Positions 15,547-58,829 of a DNA stretch of 64,000 bases are shown here, one piece after another (the stretch's first letter is position 1; each line of letters begins with the position of its first letter). The position numbers and the translations under genes are program-made. The stretch is from Amoebidium appalachense (lineage: Eukaryota; Protista; Ichthyosporea): positions 6,883,794 through 6,947,793 of the forward strand of contig CAVNZM010000010.1 of assembly GCA_963693365.1 (NCBI GenBank), given 5' to 3'. The notes under the pieces are model-generated. The model made no database searches, was not told where the DNA came from, and worked only from the letters and a program-made list of their open reading frames with translations.

Positions 15547-25752
<10,206 letters not shown>

Positions 25753-27865: not shown

Positions 27866-30111
27866 TTACTTCTTGCCACCCTTCTTGGCAGCGGCCGTGG
27901 CACCCTTGCCACCGGCGGCGGCCTTGTCCACCTTCTCAACGGACTTGATCACACCGACGGCAACAGTTTGCCTCATGTCGCGCACGGCGAAGCGACCAAG
28001 AGGGGGGTAGGCCTGGAAGGACTCAACGCACATGGGCTTCTGGGGAACCATGGTAACCATGGCGGCATCACCGGACTTGACGAACTTGGGCAGGTCCTCG
28101 AGCTTCTTGCCGGAGCGGCGGTCGATCTTCTCCTGGATCTCAGCGAACTTGCAGGCAATGTGGGCGGTGTGGCAGTCGAGCACGGGGGCATAGCCGTTGC
28201 CGATCTGGCCGGGGTGGTTGAGAATGATGACCTGGGCAAGGAAAGACTTGGACTCCTTGGGGGGGTCGTTCTTGGAGTCACCAGCCACATTACCACGGCG
28301 GATATCCTTGACGGAGACGTTCTTGATGTTGAAACCGACGTTGTCACCCGGGACGGCCTCGGGCATGGACTCGTGGTGCATCTCCACGGACTTGACTTCA
28401 GTGGTCACACCGGTGGGGGCGAAGGTGACGACCATGCCGGGCTTGATGATACCGGTCTCCACACGGCCCACGGGCACAGTGCCGATACCGCCGATCTTGT
28501 ACACATCCTGAAGGGGCAGACGGAGGGGCTTGTCCGTGGGGCGCTTGGGCGGCAGGATGGCATCGAGGGCCTCCAGCAGGGTCTTGCCGGCGGCGTTGCC
28601 CTCCTTGCGCTCAACCTCCCATCCCTTGTACCAGGGCATGTTGTCGGTGGGCTCGATCATGTTGTCACCGTGCCAGCCGGAGATGGGCACGAAGGCAACG
28701 GCCTTAGGGTTGTAACCGATCTTCTTGATGTAGTTGGACACTTCGCTCACGATTTCGTTGAAGCGCTCCTGGTTGAACTTGATCGAGTCCATCTTGTTGA
28801 CGGCGACGATCAGCTGCTTGACACCGAGGGTGAAGGCGAGCAGAGCATGCTCACGGGTCTGGCCATCCTTGGAGATACCAGCCTCGAACTCACCGGTACC
28901 GGCGGCAACGATGAGCACGGCGCAATCAGCCTGGGAGGTACCTGTTTCCAAACAAGATCAGTAACGGGTCTGGTTCGGAAAAGTACGGAGTGTCGACACA
29001 GTTTCAGATATCTAAGAGCGACCATCAGCCCAACCCACACCGACAAAAGGAGTTGCACCATAGCACTACACCCGAACCGCCTGCCCAAGCCCAACTGTGC
29101 GGATTAAGATAACAGCGCCAACAGCAATGCACCTGTCAATAAACCAGAGCAAAAGGGGACAATACAGCCACCAGCACGAGCACAGGTACTCACCGGTAAT
29201 CATGTTCTTGATGAAATCACGGTGGCCCGGGGCATCGATAATGGTGACCATGTACTTGGTGGTCTCGAACTTCCACAGGGCGATGTCGATGGTGATACCG
29301 CGCTCGCGCTCGGCCTTCAGTTTGTCAAGCACCCAGGCGTACTTGAAGGAGCCCTTGCCCATTTCCTGGGCTTCCTTCTCGAACTTCTCGATAGTACGCT
29401 TGTCGATACCACCGCACTTGTAGATAAGGTGACCGGTGGAGGTCGACTTACCGGAGTCGACGTGACCGATCACGACAATGTTGATATGGCTCTTATCTGC
29501 AAGCAAGTGAGAATTAGAACCCATAGATAAACCAGACAGACTCGAACCTGTGCAACCACACGGCCAACAAAGCCTTCAGGAAAGCACAGTTCAACACACG
29601 TGAGGTCAGGGGTACCACATGCAACGGCTTTTTTTTTTCCATGATTGCGGAAAATAAGTACTGTTTAGAACGCTTACGCCTAATGCAAACAACTTGCCTA
29701 CTCTACCGGCCGAGAGATCTCTTCCTGCTAAAAGACCAGGGCAAAAACTCTCTTCCTGTTAACAGACCAGGGCAAAAAGGTGTTCACAGATGCCCACTGC
29801 AGATCCGCCACCATTTACAGATTAGCTTTACGGCTGCAATGCTATGGAGTCGTCGTAAGATTTGTATGGAAGAGAGCCAGGCTGGAAACGAAGCTTCTAC
29901 TCGCAGGAACACCATTCTTCCCCTACAATAAGCTGGACAGAGCTGAACATGGAAAAACCTAAACTTTCCGTCAGCACTGATAATCAACTGAAACCTCCTT
30001 GCATGATATTAGAGTCACGAAAAGCGTTATTGCCGCCCATAGCAATAAAGCCACTTCCTCCTAATAAAACTAAGGAACGAGAAAAAGGGAAGAAAACATA
30101 CCCTTTCCCAT
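27866..30111 (-). CDS. EEF1A: Elongation factor 1-alpha; exons 30102-30111, 29194-29496, 27866-28941
   Basis: ATGGGAAAGG|GTATGT..CAG|ATAAG gives [30 protein letters not shown] and NKMD motifs present, opisthokont insertion [19 protein letters not shown], strong C/G-ending codon bias. Confidence 0.98.
29778..29923 (-). ncRNA. Candidate intronic box H/ACA snoRNA in EF1A intron 1
   Basis: On the sense strand: hairpin GGAAGA..TCTTCC, H box ATACAA (29862-29867), second hairpin CATTGCAG..CTGCAGTG, then ACA plus 3 nt (29781-29783); ~146 nt. No target identified. Confidence 0.3.
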
Positions 30112-31860
30112 GTTTGCGATTTAGTCGACAAGCGACGAACAACGAAATGTGATTTCTGAAGGTCGGGGACCCGTTCTGAGGCACACGTGGACTTTTTATA
30201 CCACCCATATTTTCCCCCGGGCGACGTAGCATGCTACACCGTCATTGCTTATATTTAATTGGAGGTTAGTCCTGTTGATGTCCTGTGCACACATGACTTT
30301 AGGCCAATCAATGATAATTAAGTTAAAACCAGCTCCTTGTAACTTGAAGAGTTTTCTGTCTATTTTTTTCTATCAAGTATATGTAGTTAAATTAATAAAT
30401 ATCTTAAATAGTCATTTTAAACGTCAAAATTGAGTGTTTTGTGTTTGTTACCCTACATATATAGGTTGAGCTTGTGTGTTTCACACGGGGAGAAAGAATG
30501 CTTAGAAGCGAATGACCAATGAAAAAGTTCTGAAAAATGTGAGTGTGGCCGCTACACCGCCTATTATGTAAGATCTGTTAGATCTGTCGAGTCCCACTGC
30601 ATTCCATTTCAGCTGGTTCAAAGTGGCGCCCAAGTTTTGTTTGAGTTTGTCCTTCCGTTATGCAGCTACAATATGGACTAATGTATAGCCTATAAGAGAA
30701 ACTTTGTGTAATACACAAGCAAACACAGCAGTACAGCATGCCTATGGCACCATGGCACAGAATGACCGTTGTAACGCAGCATCGTTTTAGTGGACCAGTC
30801 AAACCACATACGTACATTCCGAAGCCTTGTGCTTTCGAGAGTTGCTGGCCATGGCCATGACAGGCAAAGGACATGGCCTTCATTCTTGCCGAACTAATAT
30901 TATAAATATAACGTTTCATCCAGTTGCAATTCTCATTCCGAAACGACAAACAAACTCCAGCTGACTCTTCTGACCAAGGGTCTTACCCATGGGCAAGTTT
31001 CATGGTCGTGCTCATTCACATGTTCGGTTGTTCGGAGGGCCCATTCTGGTCCGCTCTGTTGCATTCTATATACCATGGAGCTGCAATCAAAATGCATATG
31101 CATTTTTCAATTGGCCTATGTTCTAGCTGTTAGGGTGGAACCGCCTGGTACTTTCTTGAAGCTTTTCGTTTCATCCCCCCACCCGCCGTCCGCCCGCCCC
31201 TCGATCCTTGCAGCAGTCCTCCCCCCTCCCCCCTTCTCCCCCCCCCCCCCCCCCCCCCCCCCTTCCCCTCCCGAATTCTGCAGCTGCCGCAGTCCTCCTT
31301 TCCTCCGCCTCCCCCCCCGCGCCCCCCCCCTTTTCCCCAACACACACATGCATATGTTTGTCTCTCCTTCTCTCCCTCGCCCCCTTCCCGACTCGGAGAG
31401 ACTTTTCACATAGTCTTTTCCCCTTTGCATAGGTCATCCCCATCCCTATCCCCCTTATGCATGCGTATTTGGCATATCCATACCTAAGGCTTTGGAATTC
31501 AACCCCTCCCCCCGCATGCCCCCCCCCCCCCCCCCCCCCCCCCTTTCCTTTTAAGTTCTTTTTCGATTATCCTTTGTCCGTGGATCCCCACCCTCTTCCC
31601 CCATTTTGGCCTGCATATATATGGCTATTTCGTGTTCCATTTTCAACATCTGTTTGTAGGCAGCCTCGGCCTCCGGCTTCCCCTTAGACCCTACCTCACC
31701 TTCAAGTCAGCTAATACAGTGGTGCGCAAGCATGCATATGTGCTAATATTAGCTCTTTTTTTTGGGTTGTTGTTTTTAATTTTCTCCTGTTTGTTGTTTG
31801 TAAGGGAGCGCGTGTGGGGTGTGTAGCGGGCCCCTGGGGGGAGGGGTTGGGGGGGGTGGT

Positions 31861-32098
31861 TTTGAATGCGTCAAAAAGTGCGAAGTACACAAGAACAAAC
31901 GGATAACACGATGCAGAATGCAAGCCATACATAAAGAGTATGCATAATAAGCAGAGCCCATCCTCAGGGGGGGCCCACGTCATCCACAGTACCCGAGTTT
32001 CGACCTATTCCCCTCGCTAACGAAACCCAACTCAGATACTGTTTCACTTGAACATGAGTAGGTCACCCGTCTTGATCAGAGACGAGCAGGGTTGCTTA
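31861..32098 (-). mobile_element. SINE-like structured-RNA element, apparently full-length copy A, poly(C)-tailed
   Basis: Nearly identical to 36369-36546 and homologous to 35028-35298; flanked on both sides by GGGGTTGGGGGGGG (TSD-like). Confidence 0.75.
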
Positions 32099-32832
32099 GG
32101 GGGGTTGGGGGGGGGGGGGTCATTTGGTTTGTACATTCGTGACCATAAAGCCCATATTTATGGCATGTTCATATATTTTGTTCTTTTTTTCGTAATCATG
32201 TGGCATGTTCATATCGAATTTGTCCGGGTTATTTACAGCAATAAAGAACAACATACTTTGGGACAATACAATGAGTACTTGTCTTTCAATGAGTCTCCCA
32301 GTGAGCTTCAGAGTCGAGTATCAGCAAGCGTGACTGTTACTAAATTTTTTTAAAGATCAATAAAAAGCCATACCTCTTAGTTGTAATACTAAAAACGGCA
32401 CGAGGTTCTCATTGTGGTTGTGGAGGGGCGGAATGTTGCCTCACCAAAACCTACTACTATATATCTATCAATAGCAACTGCGTAAATATACATACGAAAA
32501 CGCATATAAAAACACTGTTAGTATCACTTCAGTCCCAATTTACGATGATTGGTAACATACACCACAAAAAAGAGATTATAAAAAAAAACCTGCACTAATA
32601 TTGTATGTGTTTGAGTACAGATTAATTTTTGGGCCTTCGAATTAGTGGGATGATTGCTTGTCCTATCCTATCGAAAAAAGCAACATCTGCTATCAGGCGT
32701 ATCACTGATATGGCATGTGAAATTCTGTGAGTGTAAAATATCTACACAGAAACACATCAAACAACGTCCTATCATTAGACCTAATGAGAGTGCAAAAAAC
32801 GTGCACGTGAGATAAGAGAACACGTCAAGAGA

Positions 32833-33574
32833 CTAACAGCATTCGTGGAGGGATTGACTTTCTATGGTGCCGGTGGCAGCGGCGGGTGGTAGTGGTGGTG
32901 GGCCGGTGCCTGTTTGTGTGCACGTGTGTGTGTGTGGGGGGGCGGGCGGGGAGGGAGGGGGGAGGGCAGGGCTATAAGATACAACAGCAAGAGCTATAGC
33001 ACGATGATTGCTGCTGCTTGGATCCGGACTTCTGGGTACTGCTCGAAGTGAGGGCATGGGGGGGAGGGGTGGCAGGTGCACCTCAAGGGGGTTCTCCATC
33101 ATCCTCTGTGCCGGCATAGTCCCTGCATCATACATCTGCACGTGTGTGTGTGTGTGAGTTGGGGGGGTGGAGGGATGGGGGGGGGGGGGGGGGGTAGTCA
33201 TGGTATGTGCGTGACTGGTGTAGTTGTCAGTATTATATGCCTTATCCAAAAACATGATCAGATAGCCTTTCGTCTGAGCGAGGCTGGGCTTAAGCCCTTG
33301 CAAGGGAATAATGTCAACTTGCCAGAACGACAGGGCTCAGAGTCTCGGCTAGGCATACCATTAGTGCACCACCAACACCATATATGGCATCACCCACAAC
33401 GCAAAGAGGCTGAGAGCAGGAACAAGTGCACACCTCCAACATGCACCCCCCTTCCTTTCCGCCCGTTCCTCTCTCCTTTCCATTTAGGGGCAATCTCCCT
33501 GGCTGCCTTTGCACCCTTGTGAGCACCTTGCTCCCCTCTTTCTCTTAACCCCGCGACCGCTAACAACCCCACCT

Positions 33575-33610
<36 letters not shown>

Positions 33611-34210
33611 CCCACACACACACACACAGACACAAAGGCAGACCCACACCCACACCCACACACGCTCGCACGCGCGCGTGCAGCACACACAAACACGCGC
33701 AGACACACACACAATCTTATGTTGAGGACACAGACACACACCTTTCTGTTGACGCTAGGCAGGCGCAGGTAGTGGCATATGGCGTTGCAGCGGTGGGTCT
33801 TCAGGAAATGCTCAAAGCCCTTCACCCCAAGATTGCCCTTGCCGAACCCCCACCTGCAATCATACATGTAGCCCTGTCAGTCCATCTGTTGTGCATAACT
33901 AGGGCATGCAAAAATGAGACATCGTCGTATCCCCTGTGACGAAGCAAAGAAAAGGGATGGCTTTAGGGGAGGGAGGGAGAAGGGGGAGGGGTGGGGGGGA
34001 TAAGAATACGCTACCCAGCACCAAATACACATTCACGAAGAACAGCACCTTCAAGTACAAGAGTATGCATCATAAACAGAGCCCATCTTCCGGGGGAAAA
34101 GTCCCGGGTGTAGTGGCGGGTGGGTTGGGGTTGGAGGGGGAAGGGGGGGGGGGGGAGGAGGGGGGGGGGGGGGGGGAGGTAGGGGGAGGAGGAGGAGGAG
34201 GAGGAGGAGG

Positions 34211-34250
<40 letters not shown>

Positions 34251-34377
34251 ATGCACCCGTCCAAGGTGTGCATCTGGGGGTCTGTGTAAAGATCGCTCAC
34301 ACCCTGAATGTCGCACACGAGCACACTGTGCCGTGAGGCCTCGTACGTGAAGTGGGAGAATGCCTGCAAGGGGGTGT

Positions 34378-34438
<61 letters not shown>

Positions 34439-34856
34439 CCGTGTTGCACAGTACACTGTGTTGTGTATGTGTGTGTACACGCGTATGTCACGGTGCCACG
34501 GTGTGTGTGTGTGCCCGTGTGTCACCGTGTGTGTGTGTGCCACGCTTGGCATGTGTGTGCCCGTGTACACATGTACACTGTGTGTGTGTGTGTGTGTATG
34601 CGTGCACGCGCGCGCGCGTGTGTGTGTGAGCACGTGTGTGTGCTTGTGTGTGTGTGCACGGAACTGTGTATGTGTGTGTATGTGTGTACATCATGTGTAG
34701 CCTCTGTGTGTACATGTGCCATGGTGTGTATGTGGGGGTCACGGTGCTGGGCCTGCAAGCAGGGTGAAGTACATGTGTTTGTACATGTGTACCGTATCTA
34801 GGACACTGATGCACTGCAACAGTGCAGGCCCCTGGGGGGCGGGGCGGGGGGGGGGG

Positions 34857-34907
<51 letters not shown>

Positions 34908-35427
34908 TTCGATATGCATTTTCGATCCGGCCCAGGCACAGATCGAATTTCAGTTTCAAAAATCGAACCATTCGATCAAAAAAATCGAATCTTCCGAACC
35001 CTGGGGGGGGGGGGGGGGGGGGGGGGGTTGAATGCGGAACACGGTACGAAGTACGCATACACGATGAGAAGCATGGTGCAGGACACATGCAAAGGCAAAC
35101 ATCAAGTATGCAACATCAGCCATGCGCACAGTATGCGTCATAAGCAGAGCCCATCCTCAGGGAGAGTCCAAGTCATCAATTGCGTCTGAGTTTCGACCCC
35201 TTAGCCCGCGTATATACGACACTCCAACTCAGACAGCAGCATCAACTGAACTTGGGAGGGTCAACCCGTCTTGATATCAAGACGAGCAGGGTTGCTTATG
35301 CAAGCAAGGTGAGCAAAACGGTGAAGATGTGTGTGCAAATTAATGCAGCGCAGCGAAAAATGTGTATGTGCTTACAGATGCACGACATAGAGCAACCATG
35401 CCCGGTTGCATGGAAGTAAAGCTGTCT

Positions 35428-35468
<41 letters not shown>

Positions 35469-37517
35469 GAATGTAGTGCCAAAAAACGAGTCAAGATACA
35501 CAGCTAATAAATAAGGTGCATGAAATGCAATAAGGAAAACACGGTGAGTATGGAGGCCATGCATTCCTGGCAAAAACAAAGAATAGAAGCACGACATCAA
35601 AATGCACAAGCACGAACACCACACGCACACACGCGCGCACACACAAGTAAACATACAATTATACGCATACACGCACACACCCGCACACCCACATAAGCCC
35701 CCCCCCCCCCCCCCCCCCCCCCCCTCTCTCTCTCCCTCCCCCCTCCCCCGGGACACGGATGCACCGTGCCCCCAATCACGCACGCACACACTCACCCACA
35801 CATACAGGCAGGCAGGCACACATCTAGCACGTGCACGCAAACACGAACACACCTGGAAATATACGTCTCTATCCTCATATGGGTCAATCGAGCACTTAGC
35901 CACATATTTCGTGCCGGGCTCCGACACAATTTGCATGTGGATGGCATATCTCAGACCCCCCCGAGCAAATGGTTGGGGATCCAACTTGACCTGTTAAAAC
36001 ATTGTTATCCGGTCAGTATCCTATCACCATGCTATGCTTTGGCGAAAAATGGGTTACTAACCTCTATGATGTAAGTGCATTAATGTAAACACTATGGATA
36101 TATATATACCTTTCGTATCAAACCGGCTTGACTTATTGTGGGAGGTTTAGATAGATGACCGGGAGCGGGTAGGCCGGGGGGGGTTGGGGGGGGGGGGGGG
36201 GGAGATGGTTAGAATACCTTATTGAGTACCAAGTTCGAGGTACACATTCATAACGGACAAGACAATGCAGAGTGCAAACCACAGATAAAGTGTATGCAAA
36301 ATAAGCAGGGCCCATCATGCTCAGGGTGGGCCCACAATATCTACGAGGGAGGGCGGGGAGGGGGGGGGTTTTGAATGCGTCAAAAAGTACGAAGTACACA
36401 AGAACAAACGGATAACACGATGCAGAATGCAAGCCATACATAAAGAGTATGCATAATAAGCAGAGCCCATCCTCAGGGGGGGCCCACGTCATCCACAGTA
36501 CCCGAGTTTCGACCTATTCCCCTCGTTAACGAAACCCAACTCAGAGGGGGGGGGGGGGGGGGGGGGGGGGGCACAAGAGAATCTGACGGGGACAAAGGGC
36601 TAGCTGAAAATCCCTAATACAGAAAACAACGGTGCAGACAAAACAAATGAGTTCTCCTAACAACATTGTTTATCAGCATAACAAAAAGCACTGACTCGCC
36701 CATGTGGTTTGGATGCCAGGAGAGCAATGTGGGAAAGCTTTAAGAGCCACATAAGAGAAAGGAAAACGGAGAGGGGGGGGGGGGGGGGGGGGGGGGGGGG
36801 CTACATTACCGTGATTGGATTTGCAGACCATGTGCCTGTTTTGATGTCGAAGGTGTGCTGGGTGGCACTCAGAGCCTGCAGAGTAGGTGGGTGAGTGCTG
36901 GAACCTACCCACCCTTCCCTCTCCCCTCCCCCCATTTTCCTCCCTCTTCCCCCTTCCCTTCCTTCCCCCCTGTCTCCCTGGCTTGCTCAATCCCTTTCTC
37001 GTTCACACAAGCCCTCCCTCCCTCTCTCTCCCCCCCCCACTCTCCTCTCTCACTAATCTCTCTCTCACTCTTCCCGCCCCCCCCCCCCCCCCCCCCCCCC
37101 CGGCGACCCCTCCCTTTCCCATCCCCTTCCTCCCCCCCCCCCCCCCCCCCCCCCCGGCCCTTCACTATCCCTCTCACTCACTCTTTCTTCTTACTGATAA
37201 TAAATTATATTGCCACTTTTCTTTCATTCCCACTTGGCCTTGCACCACTTACTGGCCACAGACACAAGCACATGCAACGACATATAGTCATATACAGGTC
37301 CGGGCAGTGCTGGGGAGGAAAAAGGGGGGAGAGGGCGAGGGCGGGGGGAGGGGAGGGGAAGGGGGGGGGAGGGAGGAGGGGGGGGGGGGGGGGAGGTTCG
37401 TACTCGTGAAAGGGAGAAGTCAGGTGGGGGGTGGGGGACAACTTGTCGGAGGGTTTGAACAGTGCGGCCACCTGGACTGGTTGGCTTTGCATCGGGTACA
37501 ATGGATGTGCCTGTGTA

Positions 37518-37549
<32 letters not shown>

Positions 37550-38031
37550 TGTGTGTGCGCGTGTGTGTGTGTGTGTGTGCGCGCGCGGTTGTGTCTGCAA
37601 ACGTGCATGCATAGGATCGTGTGTATTAGCTTGTGTGTTTGTTGGTTGATTTGTTGTTGTTAATTTCTTACGTGTGCTAGCTTGTGATCGATCATGGGTA
37701 CAAGTGCATGCACGCATGTACCCATGAGTTTATGCATGCGAGTCTGGTGATAGTAACAGGTTTGCATGTCTAACTGTTTCCTTACGACCACTACCGCCAA
37801 CACCCATCCACACCCCCAACCCAACCCTCCCGAGACACACACACACATATACACACACACGCACAATCACGACCGTGAGTGCGGGAGCCACCCACACACC
37901 CACGCACCCACGCACCCACACCCACACCCACACAAGCACACGCACACGCACACGCACACGCACACGCACGCACACGCACACGCACACGCACACGCACACG
38001 CACACGCACACGCACACGCACACGCACACGC

Positions 38032-38127
<96 letters not shown>

Positions 38128-38751
38128 CACGCACAGCAGGCACGCACGCACGCACATATACACACCTCCCTAAACCCCAAACCAATCTCTCCCCTGCCCT
38201 CCCCCGCTCCCCCCTCACTCACCCCCTCCGCCCCCTCCTCCTATCCCCTCCCTACCCTCTCCTCACCCCCCTTCCCCCCTTTTCCTTTTGTTTTCGTTTT
38301 TTTTTTCCCACCTGTGAGGTCGTCCACCAGCTGAGCCTTTCTCTGCCCGTATTCGTCCTGACTGATAAACCCCTCCCTTAACAATTCCTTTAAGTTGTGT
38401 AGTTGCTGCCATCTCGTGGTGCTCCGGCCTGCACGGATGGTCCCGCGCTCGCGCCTAAAAAAAAATAAAAAAATAACAAAAAAAGTTTAGAAGGGTTACC
38501 CTCCTCTTAGGTTTATCATGGGAACAGAAAATGTTTCAGAAGGTAACCTTGCCTTAGGCCATGAGAAGAAATGGTTTCGAAGGCAATCTTCATATCCAGC
38601 TTCACATCTCGAGAGAGAAAGGGGGAGATTAGGATGTGTTATATGGGTCGAAGCACAAAACCTTAACCATGTAAGACGGTTTTGTTCATTTTTGGTAGAT
38701 GAAGGGGGGGGGGGGGGGGGGGTGGGCAGCAGGGGAAGGGGGAGTTGGGGG

Positions 38752-38787
<36 letters not shown>

Positions 38788-39025
38788 GAAGGGGGGGGGG
38801 GGGGGGGGGGGGGAAGGTAGAATGTGTCACGTATACCAAGTACAAATTCACAACGGACCATGGAATGCAGACATAAACAAGAGAAAAACACAAATCGTAT
38901 GCCACATAGTAGAGCCCCATCTTTGTCGGGAGCACGAGAAAGACTGTAGGTTATTTTTATATTTACTTTTTTCCTTTTTTTTTTTTTTTTTGTGTGTGTG
39001 TGTGTGTGGTGGTGGTGGTGGCGGT

Positions 39026-39096
<71 letters not shown>

Positions 39097-40599
39097 TCCG
39101 AATAATAAGTTAAAGCTTTACAACGTCACCTAAACCAAGGAGCACGAGACAAAAAAAAAAAAAAGGGGGGGGGGGGAGGGGGTTTGAATGCGGAACACGG
39201 TACGACGTACACATGCACAATGGGGGAAGAAGAAAATGTGTGCTGCACTGCCAGAGCTCTTATTCGCAGGGGCCGCCCCAGGGAGGGGGGGGGGGGGGGG
39301 GGGGGGGGGGGAAGGGGGGTACATACGTGTCCTTTCTTCGGGTAGTACTTGTTGGTCTGTTCTTGCCCCGTGTAGGGGGTAGGGGCATGAGGGGTGCCCT
39401 CTCATCCTCATCACACCCACTCAGACTGTCACTAGCCTCCCGGCGGAAGGGGGTGGTGGCTGGAGGGGAAAGGGGGGCTGTTAGAAAACATGAAAAGGAG
39501 GGTATATGGGGGGGGGGGGGGGGGGGGAGGGGGAGGGGGGGAGAGGGGGAGGAGAGGGAGGGGGGGGGGGGGGGGGGGGGGAGATATATGTTACAGGGCA
39601 CCAAGTACACATGACAGACAACACAATGCAGATTGCAAAGCATGAATAATAGAGAATGCATCATGGGGGGGAGGGGGGGGAGGGGGGGGAAGGGAAGGGG
39701 GGGGGGAGGGGGGGGGAAGGGGAGGGGGGGGGGGGGGGGGACGAGGGGTGGATGTTCGGGCAGAAGGGCGAGCACAGTGAGAGAGAGCAGGGGAGGGGAG
39801 GGGAGGGGAGCTGGGGGGGGGGGGGGGGGGGGAGGAGGGAGGGAGGGGTGGAGGGGTGGGGTGGGGTTGCGTGTGTGTGTGTGTGTGTGTATGTGGGGGG
39901 GGGGGGGGGGGGTATGGTGGTAGGTGAAGGGGGACCAACAAGGGAGGGGTACAAATGTGCAGTGTACCAAATAAATCGAGAGAGCCTGTGTAGGCATTAC
40001 AGACTCTCATTACAACGAGTGGATGCATGTGATATGGGGAAAAAATGTTCTATCACAATAACGAAAGATATGTGCGTGGTAGCTTATGATTGTTAGAACA
40101 CCGTATACAGCATGCAGATGCAGCTGTTAGACTAACAAAAAGACATACAAAAGTAATTTAAAAAATGTTCAATTCACCTATCCACCATTTAATGTATGTG
40201 AGAAGACCGTTAACCTGACAAAGTCTCCCACTACCACCATGACATACTAGCTGCCCCATTCACATCATCATTTCCCCTTTCAACTCCCCCCCCCCCCCCC
40301 CCCCCCCCCCGGTCGCTCCGTGAACGCTAACCTACACTCAAAATCATCTTATTAACAAACTCAATTACCCCAAACACAACAGAGAGAAGAGAAGAGTGGG
40401 GGGATCGCAGAAATTCATGCGGCAAATGGTGGGTGTTTATGCTTCTGTTTGCTTACAGGATGACCCCTCGTTTGTGATGGCACCATAGCCAGGCCCAACA
40501 GTCGGTGGGGGGGAGGGAAAATGGGCCTCGGGGCCTGTGCTCTCTCTGTCATGAATGTGTACGTGTGTGTGTGTGCGTGTGTGTGTGTGTGCGCGCGCA

Positions 40600-40660
<61 letters not shown>

Positions 40661-41778
40661 ACGTGTGTGTGTGTTTGGGGGGGGGGGGGGGGGGGAGGGG
40701 GAAGGAAGAAGAGGGGTGTGTGTGTGGGTGTGTGCTTGTTTGTGTGCATGTGTGACTGTGCGTGCATGTACATGTACGCGTGTGGTGGTGACGGTGGTTG
40801 GGGGGAGAGGGGGGGGGGGGGGGGGGAGTAGGTTAGAACGTGTAACAAAGACCGAGATTCAAACTCACAACGGGCAGCATAATACAAAAAAAGGTGCAAA
40901 AGAAACATCACACAAAGAGCATGCAACAGAAGCAGTCGAGCTTATCAGAAAGAGGCCAAGGTCTGTGTATGTGTGTGTGGTGGTGTGTGTGTGTATGGGA
41001 GGGGGGGAGGGGGGTAGACCACGTACATAGTTCACACATGTATGGCTAGGCTTATAATGTGTATGCCCATATTGGGTGGTCGTGTCCGTTTTTTTTTCTT
41101 TTTCTTTTGCAATTTTCTTGTTGATTCCTTTGGTGGAGCAGCCTCCCCGCGGGGGGGGGAGGGGGGTGGGGGTGGGGGGGGGGGGTGGGGGGGGGGGGGG
41201 GGGGGGGGGATGAGTTACATAATATCAAATACACACTCACAAGGGACAACACAAAGCAGATTCTGCAATGAACAAAACAGGAGTATGCATCATAAGTACA
41301 GCCATCAGCAGGGGCTCAAATCACACGCAGCACCCGGATTTCGGCAGCCGCGGCCGCGCCGGGGGGGGAGGGGGGGGGGGGGGAGGGGGAGGGTTAGACT
41401 TTGTTGAACAGTCAGAAGTATGCATTCACGACAGGCAATAACATGGTGGCTGGGGGAGGGGGGGGGGGGGGGGAGGGGGGGGGGGAGGGGAGCAGAAAGG
41501 GGGGAGGGGGGTAAAAACATTTCAAGGAACAGGAGAGGGAGGGGAGGGGCGGGTGGGGAGGGGTCTTCGGGGGGGGGGGGGGGGGAGGGGGGGTTGGAGG
41601 GTGTGGGAAAGGGGGGGGGAGAAGAGGGGGGGGGGGGGAGGGAACATACAGACTACCGATGGGGACAGAGGCCTCAACACCACTGTCTGAATATTCGGGG
41701 GGTGCCCAGACATGACGGGCACACGGTGGGGCCATCAGCTACTGTGTGCAAACAGTATTCTCAAGCGGGCAACGTCAC
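32833..41778 (-). CDS. Alpha-kinase (eEF2K/MHCK family, Dictyostelium AK1-like architecture) with a SHOCT-like helix; exons include ~39331-39461, 38313-38454, 37404-37471, 36809-36875, 35853-35990, 34257-34363, 33743-33853, ~33003-33135, 32833-32909; central kinase exons not found
   Basis: [33 protein letters not shown] (SHOCT-like), [48 protein letters not shown] and [20 protein letters not shown] are diagnostic alpha-kinase motifs. The 5' exons are uncertain. Confidence 0.85.
35028..35298 (-). mobile_element. SINE-like structured-RNA element, diverged copy B
   Basis: Same 5' boundary (TAAGCAACCCTGCTCGTCT) and same 3' end (CGCATTCAA followed by Cn) as copy A, with compensatory substitutions in the stems. 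Confidence 0.75.
36369..36546 (-). mobile_element. 5'-truncated copy C of the same element
   Basis: Near-identical to 31861-32036, truncated inside the long stem, with G-tracts on both sides. Confidence 0.8.
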
Positions 41779-41870
41779 TGCAGGGAGGGGGGAGGGCGGG
41801 AAGGGGGGAGAAGTGAGGGGGGGGGGGGGGGGGGGAGGGGGGGGGAGAAGGAGGAGGGGGTGGTGTGGGT

Positions 41871-41901
<31 letters not shown>

Positions 41902-42053
41902 GGGGGAGTAAGAATGCAGTACAGGGTAAGGAAATACAAGTACAAGCAGAAAACTTATGGTAAAATACCGAGGCAAGGGCAAAGGTGACACATGACATTT
42001 GCACAGCTCGACATGAATCACCGAAATTGTCAGGGAGGGAAGAGAGGGGGGGG

Positions 42054-42096
<43 letters not shown>

Positions 42097-42908
42097 CTTG
42101 GTGAAAAAAAAATACAGGAGTATATAATCAAACAATCCTGCGCACGTGAAGAAAGAGGGGGGGTCGCCATTAAGCCTTGTGTATGGACGTAACGATGATG
42201 GGCAGGCAATCAAGGACACATTAGCACTGGTCAGGGAACACAAGTTGAGAAAGAAGGACAGAAGCACAGATGCCTAAGGGTCTGTGTTTCCAGAAGAGTT
42301 GTGCGGTCTCTAAGCGTTTACAATGGCACCACTTTTAACACCATTCCTAGAGTGTGTTTCTTTTTGGAGTTCACCCTCTAACTGTGTTGCTGTTAAGGGT
42401 AGGAATGCTGTCTGGAAACATGAAGAATTATACTGGCCAGTCACTGTAGTCTTCGCTTTGTATGTAAACGGGATGTCATGATGTTCGTGAGTGTTACAAA
42501 ACAACCGGCACCACGCACCTGTTTTACTGGCACGAACACTCGACGCACGGCACGTACCTAGTTGAGGGCAATCTCACTAGAAGGCACGGTTACTCGACGG
42601 ATTTTCACTATAATAGAAACTCACATGGAGTCTCTAGTTGTAAGGTTGAAAGAGGGAAAACGAAGTTATGGTGATCCCTGCTGCATCCCCTTTTCCTAAT
42701 GGAGGTGCCGGGTCATTAGACTAGAGGTGCTTGATTTCTTCTACGAGAAAACTTTATCCTTTAAATTTGCGTCCCTATGATCGAAGCTCCTGTCTCTGGA
42801 CTCGGAGGAAAAAAACTTAGGAAACGAAAAGTGTGTGCTTTGGCTGGCAATGGCTGCCAAAAAAATGCATTCCACGCCACTTCACCAACCAATCAATGGC
42901 TCCTAAAT

Positions 42909-43577
42909 TATGAAAACCACATTTCACATCACTCACTCGTGCTTGCCTCATGCCCCCCGTGTCCGTGGAGTGCAGGCCGTCGTGCCTGCACCCAAGGGGC
43001 TGGCCGAGGCGGGGGCCGCCAGGTGGGGTCCATGCCATGAGCCCCCCCCGCACCAGCCGGGGCTGGGCCCCGCCTCGACATGCTTTATTGCCGCTGCAAT
43101 CGGGCTGTGAGCCAGTCACAGTCGCATACGTACACCGTCATGTATACAGACTGAGAGGTGGGTGGGTGGGAGCCGCCGTGTGCTAGCCACCGAAAACGCA
43201 ATCGTGCTAACAAAAACCGTACGTGCAGCACACGGCGAAAACGAAGGTGGCCTGCATCTGCAGTGTGCTGCGCCGGAAATACCGGCGCTGGTGGCGCCTG
43301 ACGTCAGGCGCTGCGCCAGACCGATGTCAGCCGCCGCTGCGGCTGCGCCTGGCGCCGCGGCCCGTGACGTCATGGGCCGCCCGGCTGCCTGCGCCCGAAG
43401 TGATCCGTGAAACATCTTTCATCTGCTGCGCATATGAAACGTACATTCACATCACTCACTCGTGCTTGCCTCATGCCCCCCGTGTCCGTGGAGTGCAGGC
43501 CGTCGTGCCTGCACCCAAGGGGCTGGCCGAGGCGGGGGCCGCCAGGGGGGTCCATGCCATGAGCCCCCCCCGCACCA
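42909..43577 (-). repeat. Split direct repeats (B1-A2-B2) forming the 3' end of a PAT/DIRS-type element
   Basis: A ~145-bp near-perfect direct repeat at 42909-43055 and 43433-43577, immediately downstream of the recombinase stop. Confidence 0.8.
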
Positions 43578-43587
43578 CAAGGCCCCC

Positions 43588-44711
43588 CTACTGCGATGTA
43601 GGGGGTCCGCCCCAAGGTCCCGTGGCGAGGCCCTGGTGTGACCAGACGGTGGCAATGGAGGCTTGCACGTCGCGGTGGGGCAGCCGGATGTAGACCATGA
43701 ATGCGTCTGATGCCCAGCGGCCAACTTGAAGGGCTTTGATGGTGGCGTCAGGTAGGCCCGCTCTCTCAGCTGCAGTGGCCCCCCCTATGCGCAGGCTGTG
43801 GCCGGCGTACCGGTCGGGGTCGTAGCCCGCATGGTGTAGAGCTGTGCGGAAACCGGCGATGAAGGTGCTCTTGAGGTAAGGGCTGCCGTCGACGCTGAAC
43901 AGGGGTGCATCTGGGTGGATGCCTGCCCTGGTTGACGAGACCCCCAGGAAGAGGGCTAGATTGGCTGCTGGGCAGAAGGAAGGCTCCTCCGGGAAGGCGG
44001 GCACCCGGATGGTAACACCCTTGCCCGTGGGGTCGGTCTTAGATGTCGGCAGGAAGACTGTTGCCCCAATCAGGCGGCCATCCTGCCATAGGAGCTGGAC
44101 GTCGCGACGCTTGGCGTGAAGGAGGGGGTTGAACTTGGCCGCAGATTTGGACGTGAACTCGCCCGAGCGCAGGAGGCACGAGCTGCCAAGCAGCAGGGCA
44201 GCCCACAGACGCAGGGCCTCCAATGAAGAGCCCGGTTGGATGACTGGGAGGAGGGCGCGGAGGTCGGCTGGGAGGAGGGGCTCGAGCACTCGTTTGGGCC
44301 GGTGGCTGCCTTCCAGCAGCAGGAAGCGGCCAGCCCCGCGGATAAACCACTGAAGGCTCTGCTGGCCGGAGCCCGCTGGTGGTGCCATGCCCAAGCTGCG
44401 GTGCAGGCTGTTGACGGCGGAGACGATGCTGGGCATGGTCCGGGCTTGCACCGCACGCATGGCGCACCAGGCAAGGAACAGCTGCACTTGGGCTGGGCAG
44501 GCTGGCAGGTAGCCACCATCAGGATTGCGGCAGTCCATTGCGTAGATGAAGTCGATAAACTGGCGCTGGTAGGACGAGTAGGAGGACTCCGTGCTGTCGC
44601 CCACTGACAGCCGAGTGATGGTGCGGGCCACCTCCGGGACACGGGCCAAAACCTCGGGGGTGAACCACTGGGCAAGCCTACCATGGTCGCCACCAAAGGG
44701 GAGCAAGCCAC
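43588..44711 (-). CDS. Tyrosine recombinase of a DIRS/PAT-type retrotransposon
   Basis: Helical N-terminal domain plus the full catalytic set: LLRSGE (R), SKTD (K), GHSLRIGGAT (HxxR), GRW and MVYIR (Y). Frame is open for 372 codons with no in-frame ATG at the start. Confidence 0.92.
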
Positions 44712-46341
44712 CTGCAGGGACAGAGCTGTGTGAGCATCATGCCTAGAGTTGGGCCAGGGGGGGGGGGGGGGGGGGGGGGTAAAGGCAACGAGCGGGGTGG
44801 GCGGCAGGCAAGCGGGTGCACAGGCAGGCAAACAAGGGGGGGGAGGGGGGGGGGGGGGGGCGTAGCTAAAGGGCAGAGGATGCATGCAGCGCTGGCAGGG
44901 AGGGCGGGGGAAGGGGAGGGGGGGGTATGCGCGCACAAGCCGCGGTGTAGGCGTGCGTGTGTGTGCGCTAGTGTGTGGGTGTGTATGAGCATGTGTGTGT
45001 AACACCGAGGTTAAGCATGCACGATCGAAGGGGCGGGTGGAGGGGTGGCAGGGTGGGGTTGGGGGGGTTGGGGGGAGGGGAAGGAGGGGGGGGGGGGGGG
45101 GGGGGGGGGGCAGGACACGCCACAAGCAGTTGGCACTGCGGGCCAGCACAGAACAAAGAGGCACACCGTGTGTACACCGTAAGACCGTAATGTATTGTCC
45201 CAAACACTCCACCGGGTGAGTGAGGGAATCCGAGCGAATTCGTGTAGTGGGGGGGGGCCGGCCCCGGCCGCCACTGCAGAACATGACTCGATGAGCGATA
45301 TACAAAGTGGGAAGGGGGGAAGGGGGGGTGTCGGTGCCCCCCACAGCCCACACGCCAAGCCCAATACGAAGGCAAAGGAACAGGGGAGGGGGCTCGGCCC
45401 AGCCCCATCACGAGAGAGGGGCAGCAAACCGTACGCGTTTTCGATTTGCGGTTGGATCGGGTAACCGTAACGGTACGAGCACTGAGCAGTCAGGCGGTAC
45501 CAGGGTTCGAAGGACGGTGGAGCCCATTAACGGAAGTCGAAATCCCGTTTCGGAAAAACTCTTCGAAAATCGGAATGCTCCGTCGGAGCAGGCCCACCAA
45601 AATTCGTAATCGTCGCGCATCAGTAAACTAGGGCATGCTTATTTTAGACACCAAACTGCTTTTCGATTGCTTTATGGCCGGTCTGATGATGAGAGGCAGC
45701 ACCCGGCTGCCGTCCCCGCAGACCCCCACTGGGCCGCAAATAAATCACATGTACTGACTCCCGGCCCTGGGGCCATACACACGAGATCAATACAGATAAG
45801 GCCCCCGGGCCCGAAAACAGAAATCATCCCCCCCCCCTCCCCCCCCCCCCCCCCCCAACTCAGAAGTTTGAAGAACAATAAAGCTTCTGATACACGAGAG
45901 AAAATCATTACTTCTTCTTCTAGGATAAAAAATCTTAATCATACAATCAAGATGTTAATCAATGAACTCCTCAAATGAAAAGATCATTTCTAACCCCCCC
46001 CCCAACAACCAAGCACTACTACCCTCAACCTAGCACTTACAGCCCTGATCCATAAAGCTGAGAGCAGCAGGCAAACGGCGAGGAAACAGAATGCGGGCGG
46101 GCGGGTGGGTCCTAAGAGAAGCGGCGAGGAAAAGACTGTTTGAGAGAAGCGAAAAACACGACTTTTATAGTCGCTTCTACAGGAAGAGATGTGTGATGCC
46201 GATCATCACACCATCTTCTTCCAATTGGTGGATAAAATGAGTATTTACCAAATATATCATTTTAGACACCAAACTGCTATGGGCTACGTCCACTCAGACA
46301 CAGCGGCTCCGATCGGCTAACATACACTATTATACAATAAC

Positions 46342-48405
46342 GCTGGCTGGCTGGGGCCCCTCAGCCTGCCCAGGAACCGGGGGTGCCGTCCAGACGAAAT
46401 GCTTGCATACGCCACGGCCGCACCCCGCGCGGGAAAATCACCTCAGAGGGGCGCAGAGGCACAAAGGCTTGCCGGAGCCAACCCCTGAATGACGGGCCAC
46501 CACGACGCCGTATCCCACACTCAGTCTGGAATTCGAACGACGAGGATCCCGCTGCAGCTTGGCCACCGTTCGCTTTATCAGCGGGAACGGAGGCGCCCAC
46601 CAGCTTGGTGCCGTCGCAAAGGAACGGCAGTCTGAGGAGCTAAATACCCGTTAAATGTACTAATACACGGATAGAATAGGTTTTTAGTGAAGTTTATTTA
46701 TTTATTCAGGTCAGCACGTGTCTCACCTGCAGTTTATCGTAGGCACCAGGCCGTGTACTTGAATGTAGAGGGCTTGCCTGAAGGGATGTTGATGTGCAGC
46801 TGAACTTCGTAGAGCGGAAATTGAGCTTATATAGTACTTGAGGAGCTAGGTGACTACTTGTATATCGCTATACGTAAAGTAGGCAGGTGCCTAAATGACC
46901 TAAACTAGGCGCTTTATATACTAGTCGAGCGGGGCGTCATCTATCCTGAATTTCTAGGCTAGACCCGATAACGATTCCTATTGGCTAAGACTATTAGATC
47001 TAACTATAAATAGCTATATTGCCGATTTATTCTATCGAATCACAACGCGCGGCTCGCATTCCTTCTAGCTGATGGAGTCCGGCATTCCATGCTAAGGCAC
47101 TAACTCAACATCCTTTCATACAAACATTTCATATGTACATGGGGGCTACGAATCTCGTATAGAATACAACACTATGTTATTATTAACTATGTGCAATACT
47201 AGAGATATATATAATGAATTACAATTTTCAATGAATATTGAAGTATATGCTGTAGTACGTTACTTTTCCCGGGAGATTTCCAGCCGATCTGTGATTGGCT
47301 GTTGTTCCTTATCAGTGCGCATAAAGCCCCAAAGGCTCACAGCCAAGTTGAGGTGCACCAATAGATAATTTGGATCGGTGATTGTTTACATTCCATATAT
47401 TACGATGAGCTTTTTATATTACGTAATTTGCTGTGCGCGTTCACATAGAGCTTTCGTTAGATAAAGCTCTTTATTTCTTTATGCTGTCCCTGGAGGGCTA
47501 TAATTAGAATCCAAGGATACTCCAAGGATATGCTCAGGCGGCTAAAGCATTGCTGGGATACTCCAAGGCTGTAGGGGGTCGTTCTTATTGCTCCGACCGA
47601 AATAGCGTGAAGGGTTTCTTTTAGAGGCTGGTCATTAGCATACGTGATAGTGAACCAATAGCATGCTTTCCGTCAGATCCTTTAGATCTGCGCTCTGCGC
47701 GAGTACATGAGCATGTACGTAAGTGTACAGATATGCATTTGGAGCACAGCGACATATGTAAAAGACTATTTCGACACACTTATAGTTTATATTTTAAAAT
47801 CATTTGCATATTAGCATACATAATTATTGACTACTTTGCGCCGTCCACGGCACCGCCAACCCATCTGCCATCCCACCAGGGGCCCCTGCCTGGGCCCACA
47901 CATTAAACTCGGCCTTCACTGCCGAGGTGTGGGTGGCAAACCGATCGACTTCGGGCTGCATGCCCAGCAGCCACTCCACCCGCTCGACTGCCTCCGGCGT
48001 GACTTGCCATTCATGCCGGGGGTCCACCCGTGACAGCCAATCTGCTCGGTCGTTGAGCTCACCCGGCCCCGGGGGATGTAGGCCACCTCCTGTGGCCAAG
48101 GCAACCCGTGGTCGAGGCACAACTGGAGAAGCTGCCACAGAATGGGCTGCATCGAGGGGCTGCCGCCGCTGCCCTTTTTCCGCACGGCCCCAAGGGCCGC
48201 CTGGGCATCGGCTTGCCACTGCACCCGCTGCCCACGGAGGGCTTCCTGCAGAGCAGGGCTCTGATAGGCCTCCAACAGGCCCTCACACTCCGCAATCGCC
48301 GCCGCCCGCGGAGCGTCGTCGGCTGCCCACCTGCAGGTCCCTGAGCCCCTCCGTCCCGTTCCCCGTCGTTCCTCCCGTCTCTCCTCCCGGCCTGCAACGG
48401 CTATG
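46342..48405 (-). pseudogene. Degenerate DIRS-type RNase H + adenine-methyltransferase-like domain, split by a ~1.2 kb insertion (~46640-47830)
   Basis: RNase H: IAECEGLL..VQWQADAQAA..YIPR/GELNDRADWLSR. MT-like: EWQV..VDRFAT..DGLAVPW, resuming near 46600 as WWAPPFPLIKRTVAKLQ..ILVV..SWWP. Frameshifts and stops present. Confidence 0.8.
46650..47825 (-). mobile_element. AT-rich insert(s) resembling one or two solo LTRs nested in the DIRS-type element
   Basis: Non-coding and interrupts the MT domain. Minus strand shows a TGTTGAG start (47110), TATATAAA and AATAAA signals. TSDs not resolved. Confidence 0.4.
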
Positions 48406-52540: not shown

Positions 52541-52883
52541 TATTGATGCATCCGAAATGTACTCTGATCGGAGAACTTAGCGGCCATAAGTACTCTGACC
52601 GCAGTACTTTAGGAATGCTTGTTTCGGAAGGATACCGCGAGCTATTGGGGCCCAGGAGCCCGCTTTTTTTTGTACAGCCAGTAAGAAAACATAAGTTTAC
52701 ACCTTTTTTGTCTTTGGTACGGTAACTAACAAGGCCTTCCCTAGCTTTTATTGGTTGCCGACGCTGTTGCAAGTTTTTGAATTCATGCTCGACAACAACA
52801 TGATTCATGATCAAACGGACGAAACTTGCTGAGTCCGCGAACACAACAAGCCATGGGTTTCATGTGAAAGATGAGCGCCCAAC

Positions 52884-58562: not shown

Positions 58563-58829
58563 CTGCAGGGTAGACACAACCTCAAAAACCAATTACTCGC
58601 TACGTTTACCATATATGGTGCTGGTGTCCCCCTAGACCTTAGGAATTTGCCACGACGTCCCCCTTCCCCTTCTCCCCCCCTACACCACACACACACAAAC
58701 ACACATAATACATACACACACCCACAATTACACAACCAAAACTGACATCGTAATGTCAGTTTTGCTACATTTAAAAAATGAGAATAAAACGATGTATGTA
58801 ACCATATGGGCGGGGTTTAGGGGGCTTTA

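What the first reader, a model, noticed from the sequence alone, without database searches (positions are those of the whole stretch)
31948..32098. Doubly pseudoknotted ~150-nt RNA at the 5' end of a SINE-like element, with covariation between copies
Seen in sequence, minus strand, copy A (31948-32098) versus copy B (~35141-35298). Closing stem TAAGCA/TGCTTA in both. Hairpin CTCGTCT/AGACGGG in both. Helix CATG-TTCA/TGA-CGTG (A) versus CAAG-TTCA/TGA-CTTG (B). Long stem ACAGTATCTGAGTT/AACTCGGGTACTGT (A) versus TGC-T-GTCTGAGTT/AACTCAGACGCA (B). The loop of this stem can pair upstream (GACCTA/TAGGTC versus GACCCT/GGGGTC) and downstream (GGGTT/GGCCC versus GGAGT/ACTCT). The short motifs GTCGAAAC and CTGAGGATGGG are invariant. 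G-U pairs fix the minus strand as the RNA strand, and both copies start at the same TAAGCA. Inference: this is a selected fold that I cannot assign to tRNA, 5S, 7SL, hammerhead, HDV-like, twister or pistol classes. It may be a new ribozyme defining the element's 5' end, or an RT-recruitment/template RNA.
Basis: partly seen in the sequence, partly recalled or inferred. Interest (0 to 1): 0.85.

Follow-up and report, generated by a model that had tools for sequence, protein, structure and literature searches.

The report
Scrambled hammerhead ribozyme in a retroposon
A 150-nt fold in the middle of an abundant, roughly 400-bp mobile repeat of a eukaryote holds all the catalytic nucleotides of a hammerhead ribozyme in a scrambled order, with one stem partner moved upstream, so it likely cuts itself through a layout thought not to be allowed.

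Summary
The stems are real: between copies A and B, 6 of 45 pairs change on both sides and still pair. The fold is not unclassifiable. It holds the whole hammerhead core (GUU cut triplet on stem III, C-GAAA, CUGAGGA-U beside stem I) in the non-circular order S-G-C that Eckert et al. 2023 found in metatranscriptomes. Shuffled copies give this order 7-8 times in 20,000. The unpaired core is invariant (0 of 12 positions differ, against 27 of 56 other unpaired positions).

New features: the best stem II partner lies about 100 nt upstream of CUGAGGA, a split that paper assumed does not occur, and a textbook kink-turn closes the arm.

The fold is mid-element: a 128-nt leader precedes it in copy B and is deeply covered in DNA runs. 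The second pseudoknot was paired in the wrong register.

Cleavage is untested, no RNA data were found, only two complete copies were aligned, and a rough geometric budget makes the fully folded state look strained. Verdict: new variant of a known ribozyme, in a C-run-flanked non-autonomous retroposon.

The parts
31948..32098 (-). Copy A: complete fold (151 nt), SGC-order hammerhead core with displaced stem II strand
32093..32098 (-). P0 5' strand (pairs with 31948-31953); closes the domain
   Evidence: pair probability 0.92 in A and B; invariant, so no covariation
32089..32091 (-). Pa: CCC pairing with the GGG at 31957-31959 that follows CUGAGGA-U; occupies the strand that is stem II in ordinary SGC ribozymes
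   Evidence: probability 0.28 (A), 0.81 (B); invariant
32065..32087 (-). P1 hairpin; its loop holds the palindrome UGAUCA (32073-32078)
   Evidence: B-family majority loop also contains it (variants at 35276-35278)
32059..32064 (-). Strand W (GACCUA): predicted stem II 5' strand (G10.1...), pairs with 32002-32007
   Evidence: 2 pairs changed on both sides A vs B; minor variants at 32060 and 32006 at similar shares; duplex -7.3/-9.4 kcal/mol
32049..32056 (-). Arm helix 5' strand (pairs with 31976-31982); analogue of the 'I' helix of SGC ribozymes
   Evidence: 1 pair changed on both sides; same position after the stem II strand as in the HRIMA-1 alignment
32043..32048 (-). Predicted kink-turn bulged strand (3-nt bulge, then G, A); partner strand 31983-31985
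   Evidence: G.A, A.G, A.G in A; G.A, A.G, U.U in B; definition from PMC5061560
32030..32042 (-). Stem III 5' strand (pairs with 31986-31998)
   Evidence: 2 double and 3 single changes, 1 non-pair; probability 0.87/0.99
32028..32031 (-). GUU triplet; predicted cut between 32029 and 32028
   Evidence: by analogy with hammerhead numbering; not tested
32025..32028 (-). Stem I 5' strand (pairs with 31968-31971): 3 bp in A, 4 bp in B
   Evidence: G-C in A vs A-U in B at the third pair
31998..32007 (-). Block G: stem II 3' strand, C11.1, GAAA
31960..31967 (-). CUGAGGA plus U9a (core strand of block C)
   Evidence: invariant in A, B, C
31864..31947 (-). 3' tail of copy A, followed by a C-rich run
35030..35426 (-). 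Copy B, the longest copy in the window (397 bp) between two C-runs; fold at 35141-35298, predicted cut 35226/35225
35299..35426 (-). 128-nt leader upstream of the fold, part of the high-copy family
   Evidence: depth; single copy in the window
36373..36545 (-). Copy C, 5'-truncated, 98% like A; keeps S, G and C blocks with a 7-bp stem III but lacks W; predicted cut 36538/36537
36208..36344 (-). Copy D, 5'-truncated, directly downstream of C; 3 extra nt inside the CUGA-GA strand
41209..41359 (-). Diverged 5'-truncated copy E
   Evidence: seed
34004..34103 (-). 5'-truncated copy F
   Evidence: seed
38818..40960 (-). Four more decayed 3' ends (38818-38933, 39183-39274, 39586-39666, 40834-40960)
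   Evidence: 38818 and 40834 were not seeds (E 7.8e-7, 1.5e-5)
20960..21059 (+). 5'-truncated copy I on the other strand
   Evidence: seed

Best explanation
The fold holds every conserved nucleotide of the hammerhead core in the non-circular order S-G-C, sits in the middle of a high-copy repeat of about 400 bp, and is predicted to cut itself after the GUU triplet (32029/32028 in copy A, 35226/35225 in B). Shown in sequence: stem III ends in GUU, the next strand pairs with the bases just before CUGAGGA (stem I), and C-GAAA precedes the other stem III strand. Inferred: stem II is completed not by the bases after CUGAGGA-U but by the upstream strand GACCUA, which is followed by an arm helix and a kink-turn leading into stem III. 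Read as a circle, this is an SGC hammerhead with the rest of the element inserted between U9a and G10.1, clamped by helices Pa and P0. Inferred life cycle: the repeat is a non-autonomous retroposon. A borrowed reverse transcriptase would prime at a genomic G-run paired to the C-run at the RNA's 3' end, which fits fixed 3' ends, ragged 5' ends and C-runs on both sides. Because genomic copies span the cut, cleavage would not set the element's 5' end. It would cut read-through or tandem transcripts to unit length for re-ligation, as in retrozymes. The kink-turn arm would hold the ribozyme mostly off while kinked, protecting the template.
For: Core blocks in SGC order with stems III and I: found in copies A, B and C; 8 and 7 of 20,000 shuffles of the A and B cores give that order, 41 and 46 give any order; 0 of 30 whole-window shuffles give an SGC hit with C11.1. 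0 of 12 unpaired core positions differ between A and B, against 27 of 56 other unpaired columns (Fisher p 0.001, gaps counted as differences). No variant is listed at a core position in the DNA runs (3% cut-off, 1%). Changes on both sides occur in stem I (1), W-stem II (2), the arm (1) and stem III (2). The majority letters keep the hammerhead register of stem I. In the published SGC alignment the stem II strand follows CUGAUGA-U and is itself followed by 1 nt and the 'I' strand (PMC10085705 supplement); here W is followed by 2 nt and the arm strand. W pairs with block G at -7.3/-9.4 kcal/mol, against -2.3/-5.6 for the downstream strand. Kink-turn consensus in both copies despite a different third pair. 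Of 11 copies, all 11 have 57% C or more in the 30 nt downstream and 9 have 60% or more upstream, against a 26% background.
Against: No cleavage assay and no RNA data. Stem I has only 3 pairs in copies A and C. No natural hammerhead with a helix inserted between A9 and G10.1 turned up in my reading, and Eckert et al. state that known alignments tolerate only 1-2 nt there. A rough budget needs about 70 A between the far ends of coaxial stems III and II, while the arm offers 14-22 A plus about 18 A of linker (helix-width offsets not counted), so all helices may not form in the active shape at once. The first 19 and last 22 columns of the A/B alignment are also identical, so invariance of CUGAGGA-U could come from protein recognition. 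Only two complete copies were aligned. A variant that breaks a P1 pair reaches 11% of depth in run X3. No full head-to-tail dimer is in the window, and no LINE or Penelope reverse transcriptase was found among 151 scanned frames.
Confidence: 0.5

Rival explanations
1. An ordinary SGC hammerhead under a conformational lock. The active stem II is formed by the GGGCUC that follows CUGAGGA-U. The upstream domain (W, CCC, UAAGCA) is an inhibitor that sequesters both stem II strands until a protein, a dimer partner or a truncated transcript frees them.
For: The downstream strand can give G-C and G.U then a G-G clash (1-nt offset), or 4 pairs in A and 6 in B with 2-3 G.U (2-nt offset). The upstream domain pairs with exactly these strands. 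Copy C lacks W yet keeps all three blocks. The geometry concern fits an off state.
Against: The duplex is 4-5 kcal/mol weaker than W's and must also displace Pa and P0. Without W the 'I' helix has no covarying partner in the SGC position. The G-G clash is the same in A, B and C.
Confidence: 0.17
2. A catalytically dead descendant of a hammerhead, kept as a scaffold that recruits the partner reverse transcriptase or an L7Ae-family protein and protects the RNA.
For: Genomic copies span the predicted cut with no fall in depth on its 5' side (X2: 528,707 in bin 32019-32027, then 694,926 and 792,930 in the next two). Stem I has 3 bp in A. Block C is split. Long invariant non-core stretches. Kink-turns bind proteins (PMC5061560).
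Against: GAAA and the U at the cut position are invariant amid variable neighbours. The stem I register next to CUGA is kept by a change on both sides. These are the constraints catalysis imposes.
Confidence: 0.25
3. The hammerhead likeness is coincidence, and the fold is another class: a new ribozyme, HDV-like, or a box C/D snoRNA derivative.
For: No Rfam hammerhead model matches. CGAA before a helix recalls HDV J4/2, and UGAUGA...CUGA in copy B recalls boxes C'/D (both recalled, not from a call).
Against: Rfam's nested models are not expected to score a non-circular order (inference). Chance of any-order core about 0.2% per shuffle. A loose HDV descriptor gives 1 fit in A, 0 in B, and none at the shared C. 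The box C-like word differs in A, and its CUGA partner is buried in the covarying stem III.
Confidence: 0.08

Closest known systems
Type-SGC hammerhead ribozymes (HRIMA-1 and SGC variants; Eckert et al. 2023, PMC10085705)
   Same: Block order S-G-C, two core pseudoknots, U after CUGAnGA, G10.1-C11.1, and an extra helix joining the strand after stem II to the linker between stem III and stem I.
   Different: Theirs come from metatranscriptomes, none from the genome of a known organism, and are at most 104 nt. The stem II strand follows CUGAUGA-U directly, and the S-to-G linker is about 3 nt. Here: eukaryotic DNA repeat, 151-158 nt, stem II strand moved upstream of stem III, linker 17-21 nt, N7 = G, kink-turn. 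'kink-turn' and 'k-turn' occur 0 times in their supplement.
Non-LTR retrozymes (Cervera and de la Pena 2020, PMC7229834; Li et al. 2026, 10.64898/2026.07.22.740005)
   Same: Short non-coding repeats of a few hundred bp with one internal hammerhead per unit, many of them dispersed monomers.
   Different: Those carry type I hammerheads in tandem arrays and have shown circular RNAs. Here the order is SGC, copies are dispersed, 5'-truncated and flanked by C-runs, and no RNA was examined.
Hammerheads in the pLTRs of Penelope-like elements (Cervera and de la Pena 2014, PMC4209133)
   Same: [quoted passage not shown]
   Different: Type I topology next to an RT ORF; no such ORF was found in this window.
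Standard kink-turn (Kt-7, box C/D; PMC5061560)
   Same: [quoted passage not shown]
   Different: Here it sits in a ribozyme arm. The searches listed no natural hammerhead with one (listings only).

Membership tests
Hammerhead ribozyme | CUGAnGA strand directly 3' of a stem I strand | tested here: met
   CUGAGGA in A, B, C
Hammerhead ribozyme | C-GAAA strand leading into stem III with A15.1-U16.1 | tested here: met
Hammerhead ribozyme | NUH triplet between stems III and I | tested here: met
   GUU in A, B, C
Hammerhead ribozyme | Stem I of at least 4 bp (minimum of the published descriptor) | tested here: inconclusive
   4 bp in B, 3 bp in A and C
Hammerhead ribozyme | Site-specific self-cleavage after NUH | not testable with these tools
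   no assay; no RNA holder listed
Type-SGC hammerhead | Block order S, G, C | tested here: met
Type-SGC hammerhead | Unbroken block C: stem II strand right after CUGAnGA(-U) | tested here: not met
   With a 1-nt offset only G-C and G.U form before a G-G clash; the stronger, covarying partner is upstream. A weak 2-nt-offset pairing remains possible.
Type-SGC hammerhead | Extra helix ('I') between the strand after stem II and the G-to-C linker | tested here: met
   met if W is the stem II strand; 1 double change
Type-SGC hammerhead | Short S-to-G linker (at most 8 nt in the published pattern) | tested here: not met
   17 nt in A, 21 nt in B
Standard kink-turn | 3-nt bulge followed by G.A and A.G pairs between two helices | tested here: met
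   sequence only; folding not tested
Non-LTR retrozyme | Tandem units, each with a type I hammerhead | tested here: not met
   SGC order; no full dimer in the window; one contig joint suggests a head-to-tail pair elsewhere
Non-LTR retrozyme | Unit-length linear and circular RNAs | not testable with these tools
   only contigs, no RNA on record
HDV-like ribozyme | P1/P2/P3 nested double pseudoknot with catalytic C in J4/2, shared by the copies | tested here: not met
   no Rfam match
tRNA-, 5S- or 7SL-derived SINE | Recognisable Pol III RNA head | tested here: not met
   ARAGORN 0 genes; no such Rfam match up to E 10 in 31000-37000, which includes B's leader
Target-primed non-autonomous retroposon | Fixed 3' end, ragged 5' ends, no coding capacity | tested here: met
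   target-site duplications cannot be read inside C-runs
Target-primed non-autonomous retroposon | Autonomous partner sharing the 3' end | not testable with these tools
   whole genome not held; none in the window

The most novel reading that the evidence does not exclude
An active hammerhead in a topology outside the six permutations thought possible: the core is assembled from four strands, with a whole RNA domain inserted between A9/U9a and G10.1. A natural kink-turn acts as a protein-operated off switch, and the ribozyme drives a circular-RNA retroposon that seeds the poly-C/poly-G runs of its host genome.
Probability: 0.3. Interest if true: 0.88.

Novelty: new variant of a known kind. Interest (0 to 1): 0.72.

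Why it matters
Non-circularly permuted hammerheads were reported in 2023 from environmental sequence only (bar one weak bacterial candidate), and their classification rests on three blocks assumed unbreakable. A eukaryotic genome with a high-copy repeat carrying the SGC order would give the class a host, a biological job and many natural variants. If the upstream strand is the working stem II, the core tolerates a break at a junction treated as fixed, and descriptor searches have been blind to such ribozymes. A built-in kink-turn would be a natural protein handle on a hammerhead. All of this can be tested with one 150-nt transcript.

Tried and rejected
Rfam: 0 matches at gathering scores in the window; 26 chance-level matches up to E 10 in 31000-37000, none to a ribozyme.

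Relatives elsewhere: exact family patterns found 0 loci in metagenome contigs, GTDB genomes and viral contigs. Looser patterns gave 11 viral loci (read as chance), 116 metagenome loci from a scan that stopped after 24 of 64 parts and 8 viral loci. Scored, the best of those 124 had stem III/stem I of 10/3 and 6/5 pairs with upstream partners of only 4 bp and look like coding DNA; I count none as a relative.

The fourth descriptor hit in the window (27487; 5+3 pairs, no C11.1) is at chance level.

Whole genome not held, so no genome-wide alignment, covariance model or R-scape-type test could be made.

Sequencing runs: no RNA holder listed; run X12 is only guessed to be RNA; contigs cannot show RNA ends. 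Summed depth is not a copy number, so I give none.

Earlier scan notes: nothing in 3 look-ups.

A domain-swapped dimer through the palindromic P1 loop was considered; by my reasoning it does not ease the geometry if the kink-turn is kept, so it is left as a lead.

The paper search for C-run-targeted retroposons listed nothing specific (listing only).

Full report
Setting. The window is eukaryotic. It holds a split EF1A gene (27866-29575; Pfam) whose best structural matches are eukaryotic eEF1A chains. It aligns without a gap across the stretch I recall as the opisthokont insertion and lacks two residues present in the best-matching chain, which I recall as a trait of fungi and some unicellular holozoans; the lineage was not established further. 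The window is rich in C- and G-runs and carries gypsy, copia and piggyBac-like fragments. No whole genome is held.

The observation. On the A/B alignment, 45 modelled pairs give 97.8% paired cells, 6 pairs changed on both sides, 3 on one side and 2 with a non-pair. 8 of 500 shuffles reach this, and slid partners pair in 28-43%. My own substitution null gave P about 1e-5. Both tests favour a structure that was read from these two sequences, and there are only two complete copies. Nested folding energy is unremarkable (z -0.71 and -1.97). Rfam has no match.

Two corrections. First, the fold is not the element's 5' end. Copy B has a 128-nt leader (35299-35426). When Logan contigs of DNA runs are laid on B (1,755, 7,005, 4,116 and 15 contigs), the leader is covered at summed depths of 90,000-615,000 in X2, comparable with the fold (140,000-1,035,000). 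Most long single contigs in the same table have depths of 5-28. Contigs laid on A continue past 32098 with the letters found before TAAGCA in B (38, 66 and 54 contigs). The element is therefore about 400 bp: leader, fold and a tail of 85-110 nt. The register that holds is GGG/CCC in A and GGAG/CUCC in B, directly next to CUGAGGA.

What it is. With that register the parts are those of a hammerhead. Stem III ends in G-U-U, the next strand forms stem I with the bases just 5' of CUGAGGA, and C-GAAA leads into the other strand of stem III. The 5'-to-3' order is cleavage block, GAAA block, CUGA block, which is not one of types I-III. A descriptor that asks for these three blocks in any order hits copies A, B and C, plus one weak site. 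It fires in 41 and 46 of 20,000 dinucleotide shuffles of the two cores (8 and 7 in this order). In 30 whole-window shuffles it gave 4 hits of any order and none in this order with C11.1. None of the 12 unpaired core nucleotides differs between A and B, against 27 of 56 other unpaired columns (p 0.001). No core variant is listed in the run tables (cut-offs 3% and 1%).

Comparison with print. This order is type SGC of Eckert et al. 2023 (PMC10085705; I read parts 3-6 of 8 of the text, and parts 1, 4, 8 and 18 of 42 of the supplement plus search passages; figures not seen). They validated cleavage of five SGC RNAs, found them only in metatranscriptomes, report at most 104 nt, and assume that CUGAnGA and its adjacent stem strands cannot be separated by more than 1-2 nt. 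In their alignment CUGAUGA is followed by U, the stem II strand, usually 1 nt, and a strand that pairs with the linker between stem III and stem I.

Here CUGAGGA is followed by U and GGGCUC, which gives only G-C and G.U before a G-G clash (or 4-6 pairs with 2-3 G.U at a 2-nt offset; -2.3 and -5.6 kcal/mol). The upstream strand W gives 6 pairs (-7.3 and -9.4) with 2 double changes. Minor variants at 32060 and 32006 appear at similar shares (2-4% and 3-4% in three runs; linkage cannot be seen). W is followed by 2 nt and the strand that pairs with that same linker, as in the published layout. So the piece that ends a normal SGC ribozyme has moved to the front, and the GGG after CUGAGGA-U is taken by a CCC next to the closing stem. 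Their search pattern would miss it on the core word, the 8-nt linker limit and stem II.

Literature searches. 'type-SGC' with 'hammerhead' returned only that paper. Searches on non-circular permutation, hammerhead with kink-turn, retrozymes and Penelope elements, structural variants and a candidate lineage listed nothing describing this element; most subscription papers are not searched. Passages of PMC3088659 describe only 1-2 nt core insertions.

The kink-turn. Between the arm and stem III both copies have a 3-nt bulge ending in U, then G.A and A.G, then A.G (A) or U.U (B). That is the standard k-turn, which bends the axis to a 50-degree angle and binds L7Ae-family proteins (PMC5061560, passages). 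A G at the third pair's 3n position permits folding in ions alone (PMC4382518, abstract start in the listing), which applies to A. Stem III plus these pairs is 16 steps in both copies although the distal sequence differs. This raises a difficulty. Hammerhead stems II and III stack (PMC4209133, passages), which needs about 70 A from the k-turn to the far end of stem II, while the arm offers 14-22 A plus about 18 A of linker (arithmetic; helix-width offsets, perhaps 20 A, not counted). The fully folded, kinked form is thus likely strained or off; fraying or an unkinked arm would be needed to cleave. This is inference, not a model.

The element. A profile from 9 seed copies finds 16 places at E 5 or below in the window, 11 of them at 1.5e-5 or below, 2 of those not seeds. 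They share the 3' end and differ at the 5' end. All 11 have 57% C or more just downstream and 9 of 11 have 60% or more just upstream, against 26% background. Many contigs leave the element for a C-run at its internal C-rich stretch (48 and 77 contigs at 31973). This fits target-primed reverse transcription in C/G runs by a borrowed enzyme (inference). No tRNA head and no LINE or Penelope RT were found in 151 scanned frames, out of 401 stop-to-stop frames of 75 aa or more, chosen by complexity.

Depth does not fall on the 5' side of the predicted cut, so integrated copies come from RNA that is intact or re-ligated there. Non-LTR retrozymes offer the precedent of an internal hammerhead giving unit-length and circular RNA (PMC7229834, passages; 10.64898/2026.07.22.740005, parts 1-2 of 5). 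Two anecdotes, 1 of 15 joints shown in each table: a contig in X2 and one in X3 in which a second copy begins at 32029, one base from the predicted cut, and one contig joining a fold end to a leader start.

Spread. Runs under three organism labels hold the stretch at shares of 0.72-0.91; the best may be the window's own source. No relative was found in metagenome, viral or prokaryotic collections (the loose metagenome scan covered 24 of 64 parts).

Verdict. Shown: a selected, doubly pseudoknotted fold with a complete hammerhead core in SGC order, internal to an abundant C-run-flanked repeat. Inferred: cleavage at GUU, W as stem II, k-turn control, retrozyme-like cycle. It works like a hammerhead with about two-thirds probability (0.5 split core, 0.17 locked ordinary SGC); a dead scaffold gets 0.25 and another class 0.08. 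It is not a strict member of type SGC, since block C is split and the linker is long. New variant of a known kind; interest 0.72.

Noticed in passing
window 32073-32078 and 35272-35279 (minus): The P1 loop is palindromic in both copies (UGAUCA; UGAUAUCA in B), a possible kissing-loop dimer signal.
   Followed up: partly
window 35299-35309 (minus): The end of the leader (UGCUU) can pair with the AAGCA of P0 as a local hairpin, in competition with the 3' UGCUUA; it can also extend P0 by two pairs with the tail. A possible second switch.
   Followed up: partly
whole window: 46 C-runs and 68 G-runs of 12 nt or more; in 32001-48000 they are strongly one-sided (38 G, 6 C), matching the orientation of the copies there. 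The family may seed these runs or only use them.
   Followed up: partly
window 35430-35560 (minus): A diverged stretch ending in CATTCAA and a C-run lies directly upstream of copy B's leader, like an older 3' tail in tandem; not among the hits.
   Followed up: no
window 20960-21059 (+) and 34004-34103 (-): Two truncated copies both read CGGA instead of CUGA in the core strand, perhaps a subfamily with a dead core.
   Followed up: no
window 43588-44736 (-), with direct repeats near 42930-43060 and 43450-43590: 382-aa frame with tyrosine-recombinase-like motifs (recalled) and a nearby repeat of about 130 nt, probably a DIRS/Ngaro element; no Pfam match.
   Followed up: no
window 52875-54917 (+): 680-aa piggyBac-like transposase frame (DDE_Tnp_1_7, E 4e-38).
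   Followed up: no
window 61429-63899 (-) and 48561-49082 (+): Gypsy-type RNase H and integrase with a weak chromodomain match, and a copia-type RT fragment.
   Followed up: no
window 55677-56846 (-) and 57880-58581 (-): Open frames of 389 and 233 aa without a Pfam match; the first has a zinc-finger-like CxxC...H...H stretch.
   Followed up: no
window 22622-25752 (+): Exon fragments with SPRY (weak) and RING-finger matches: a host gene spread among repeats.
   Followed up: no
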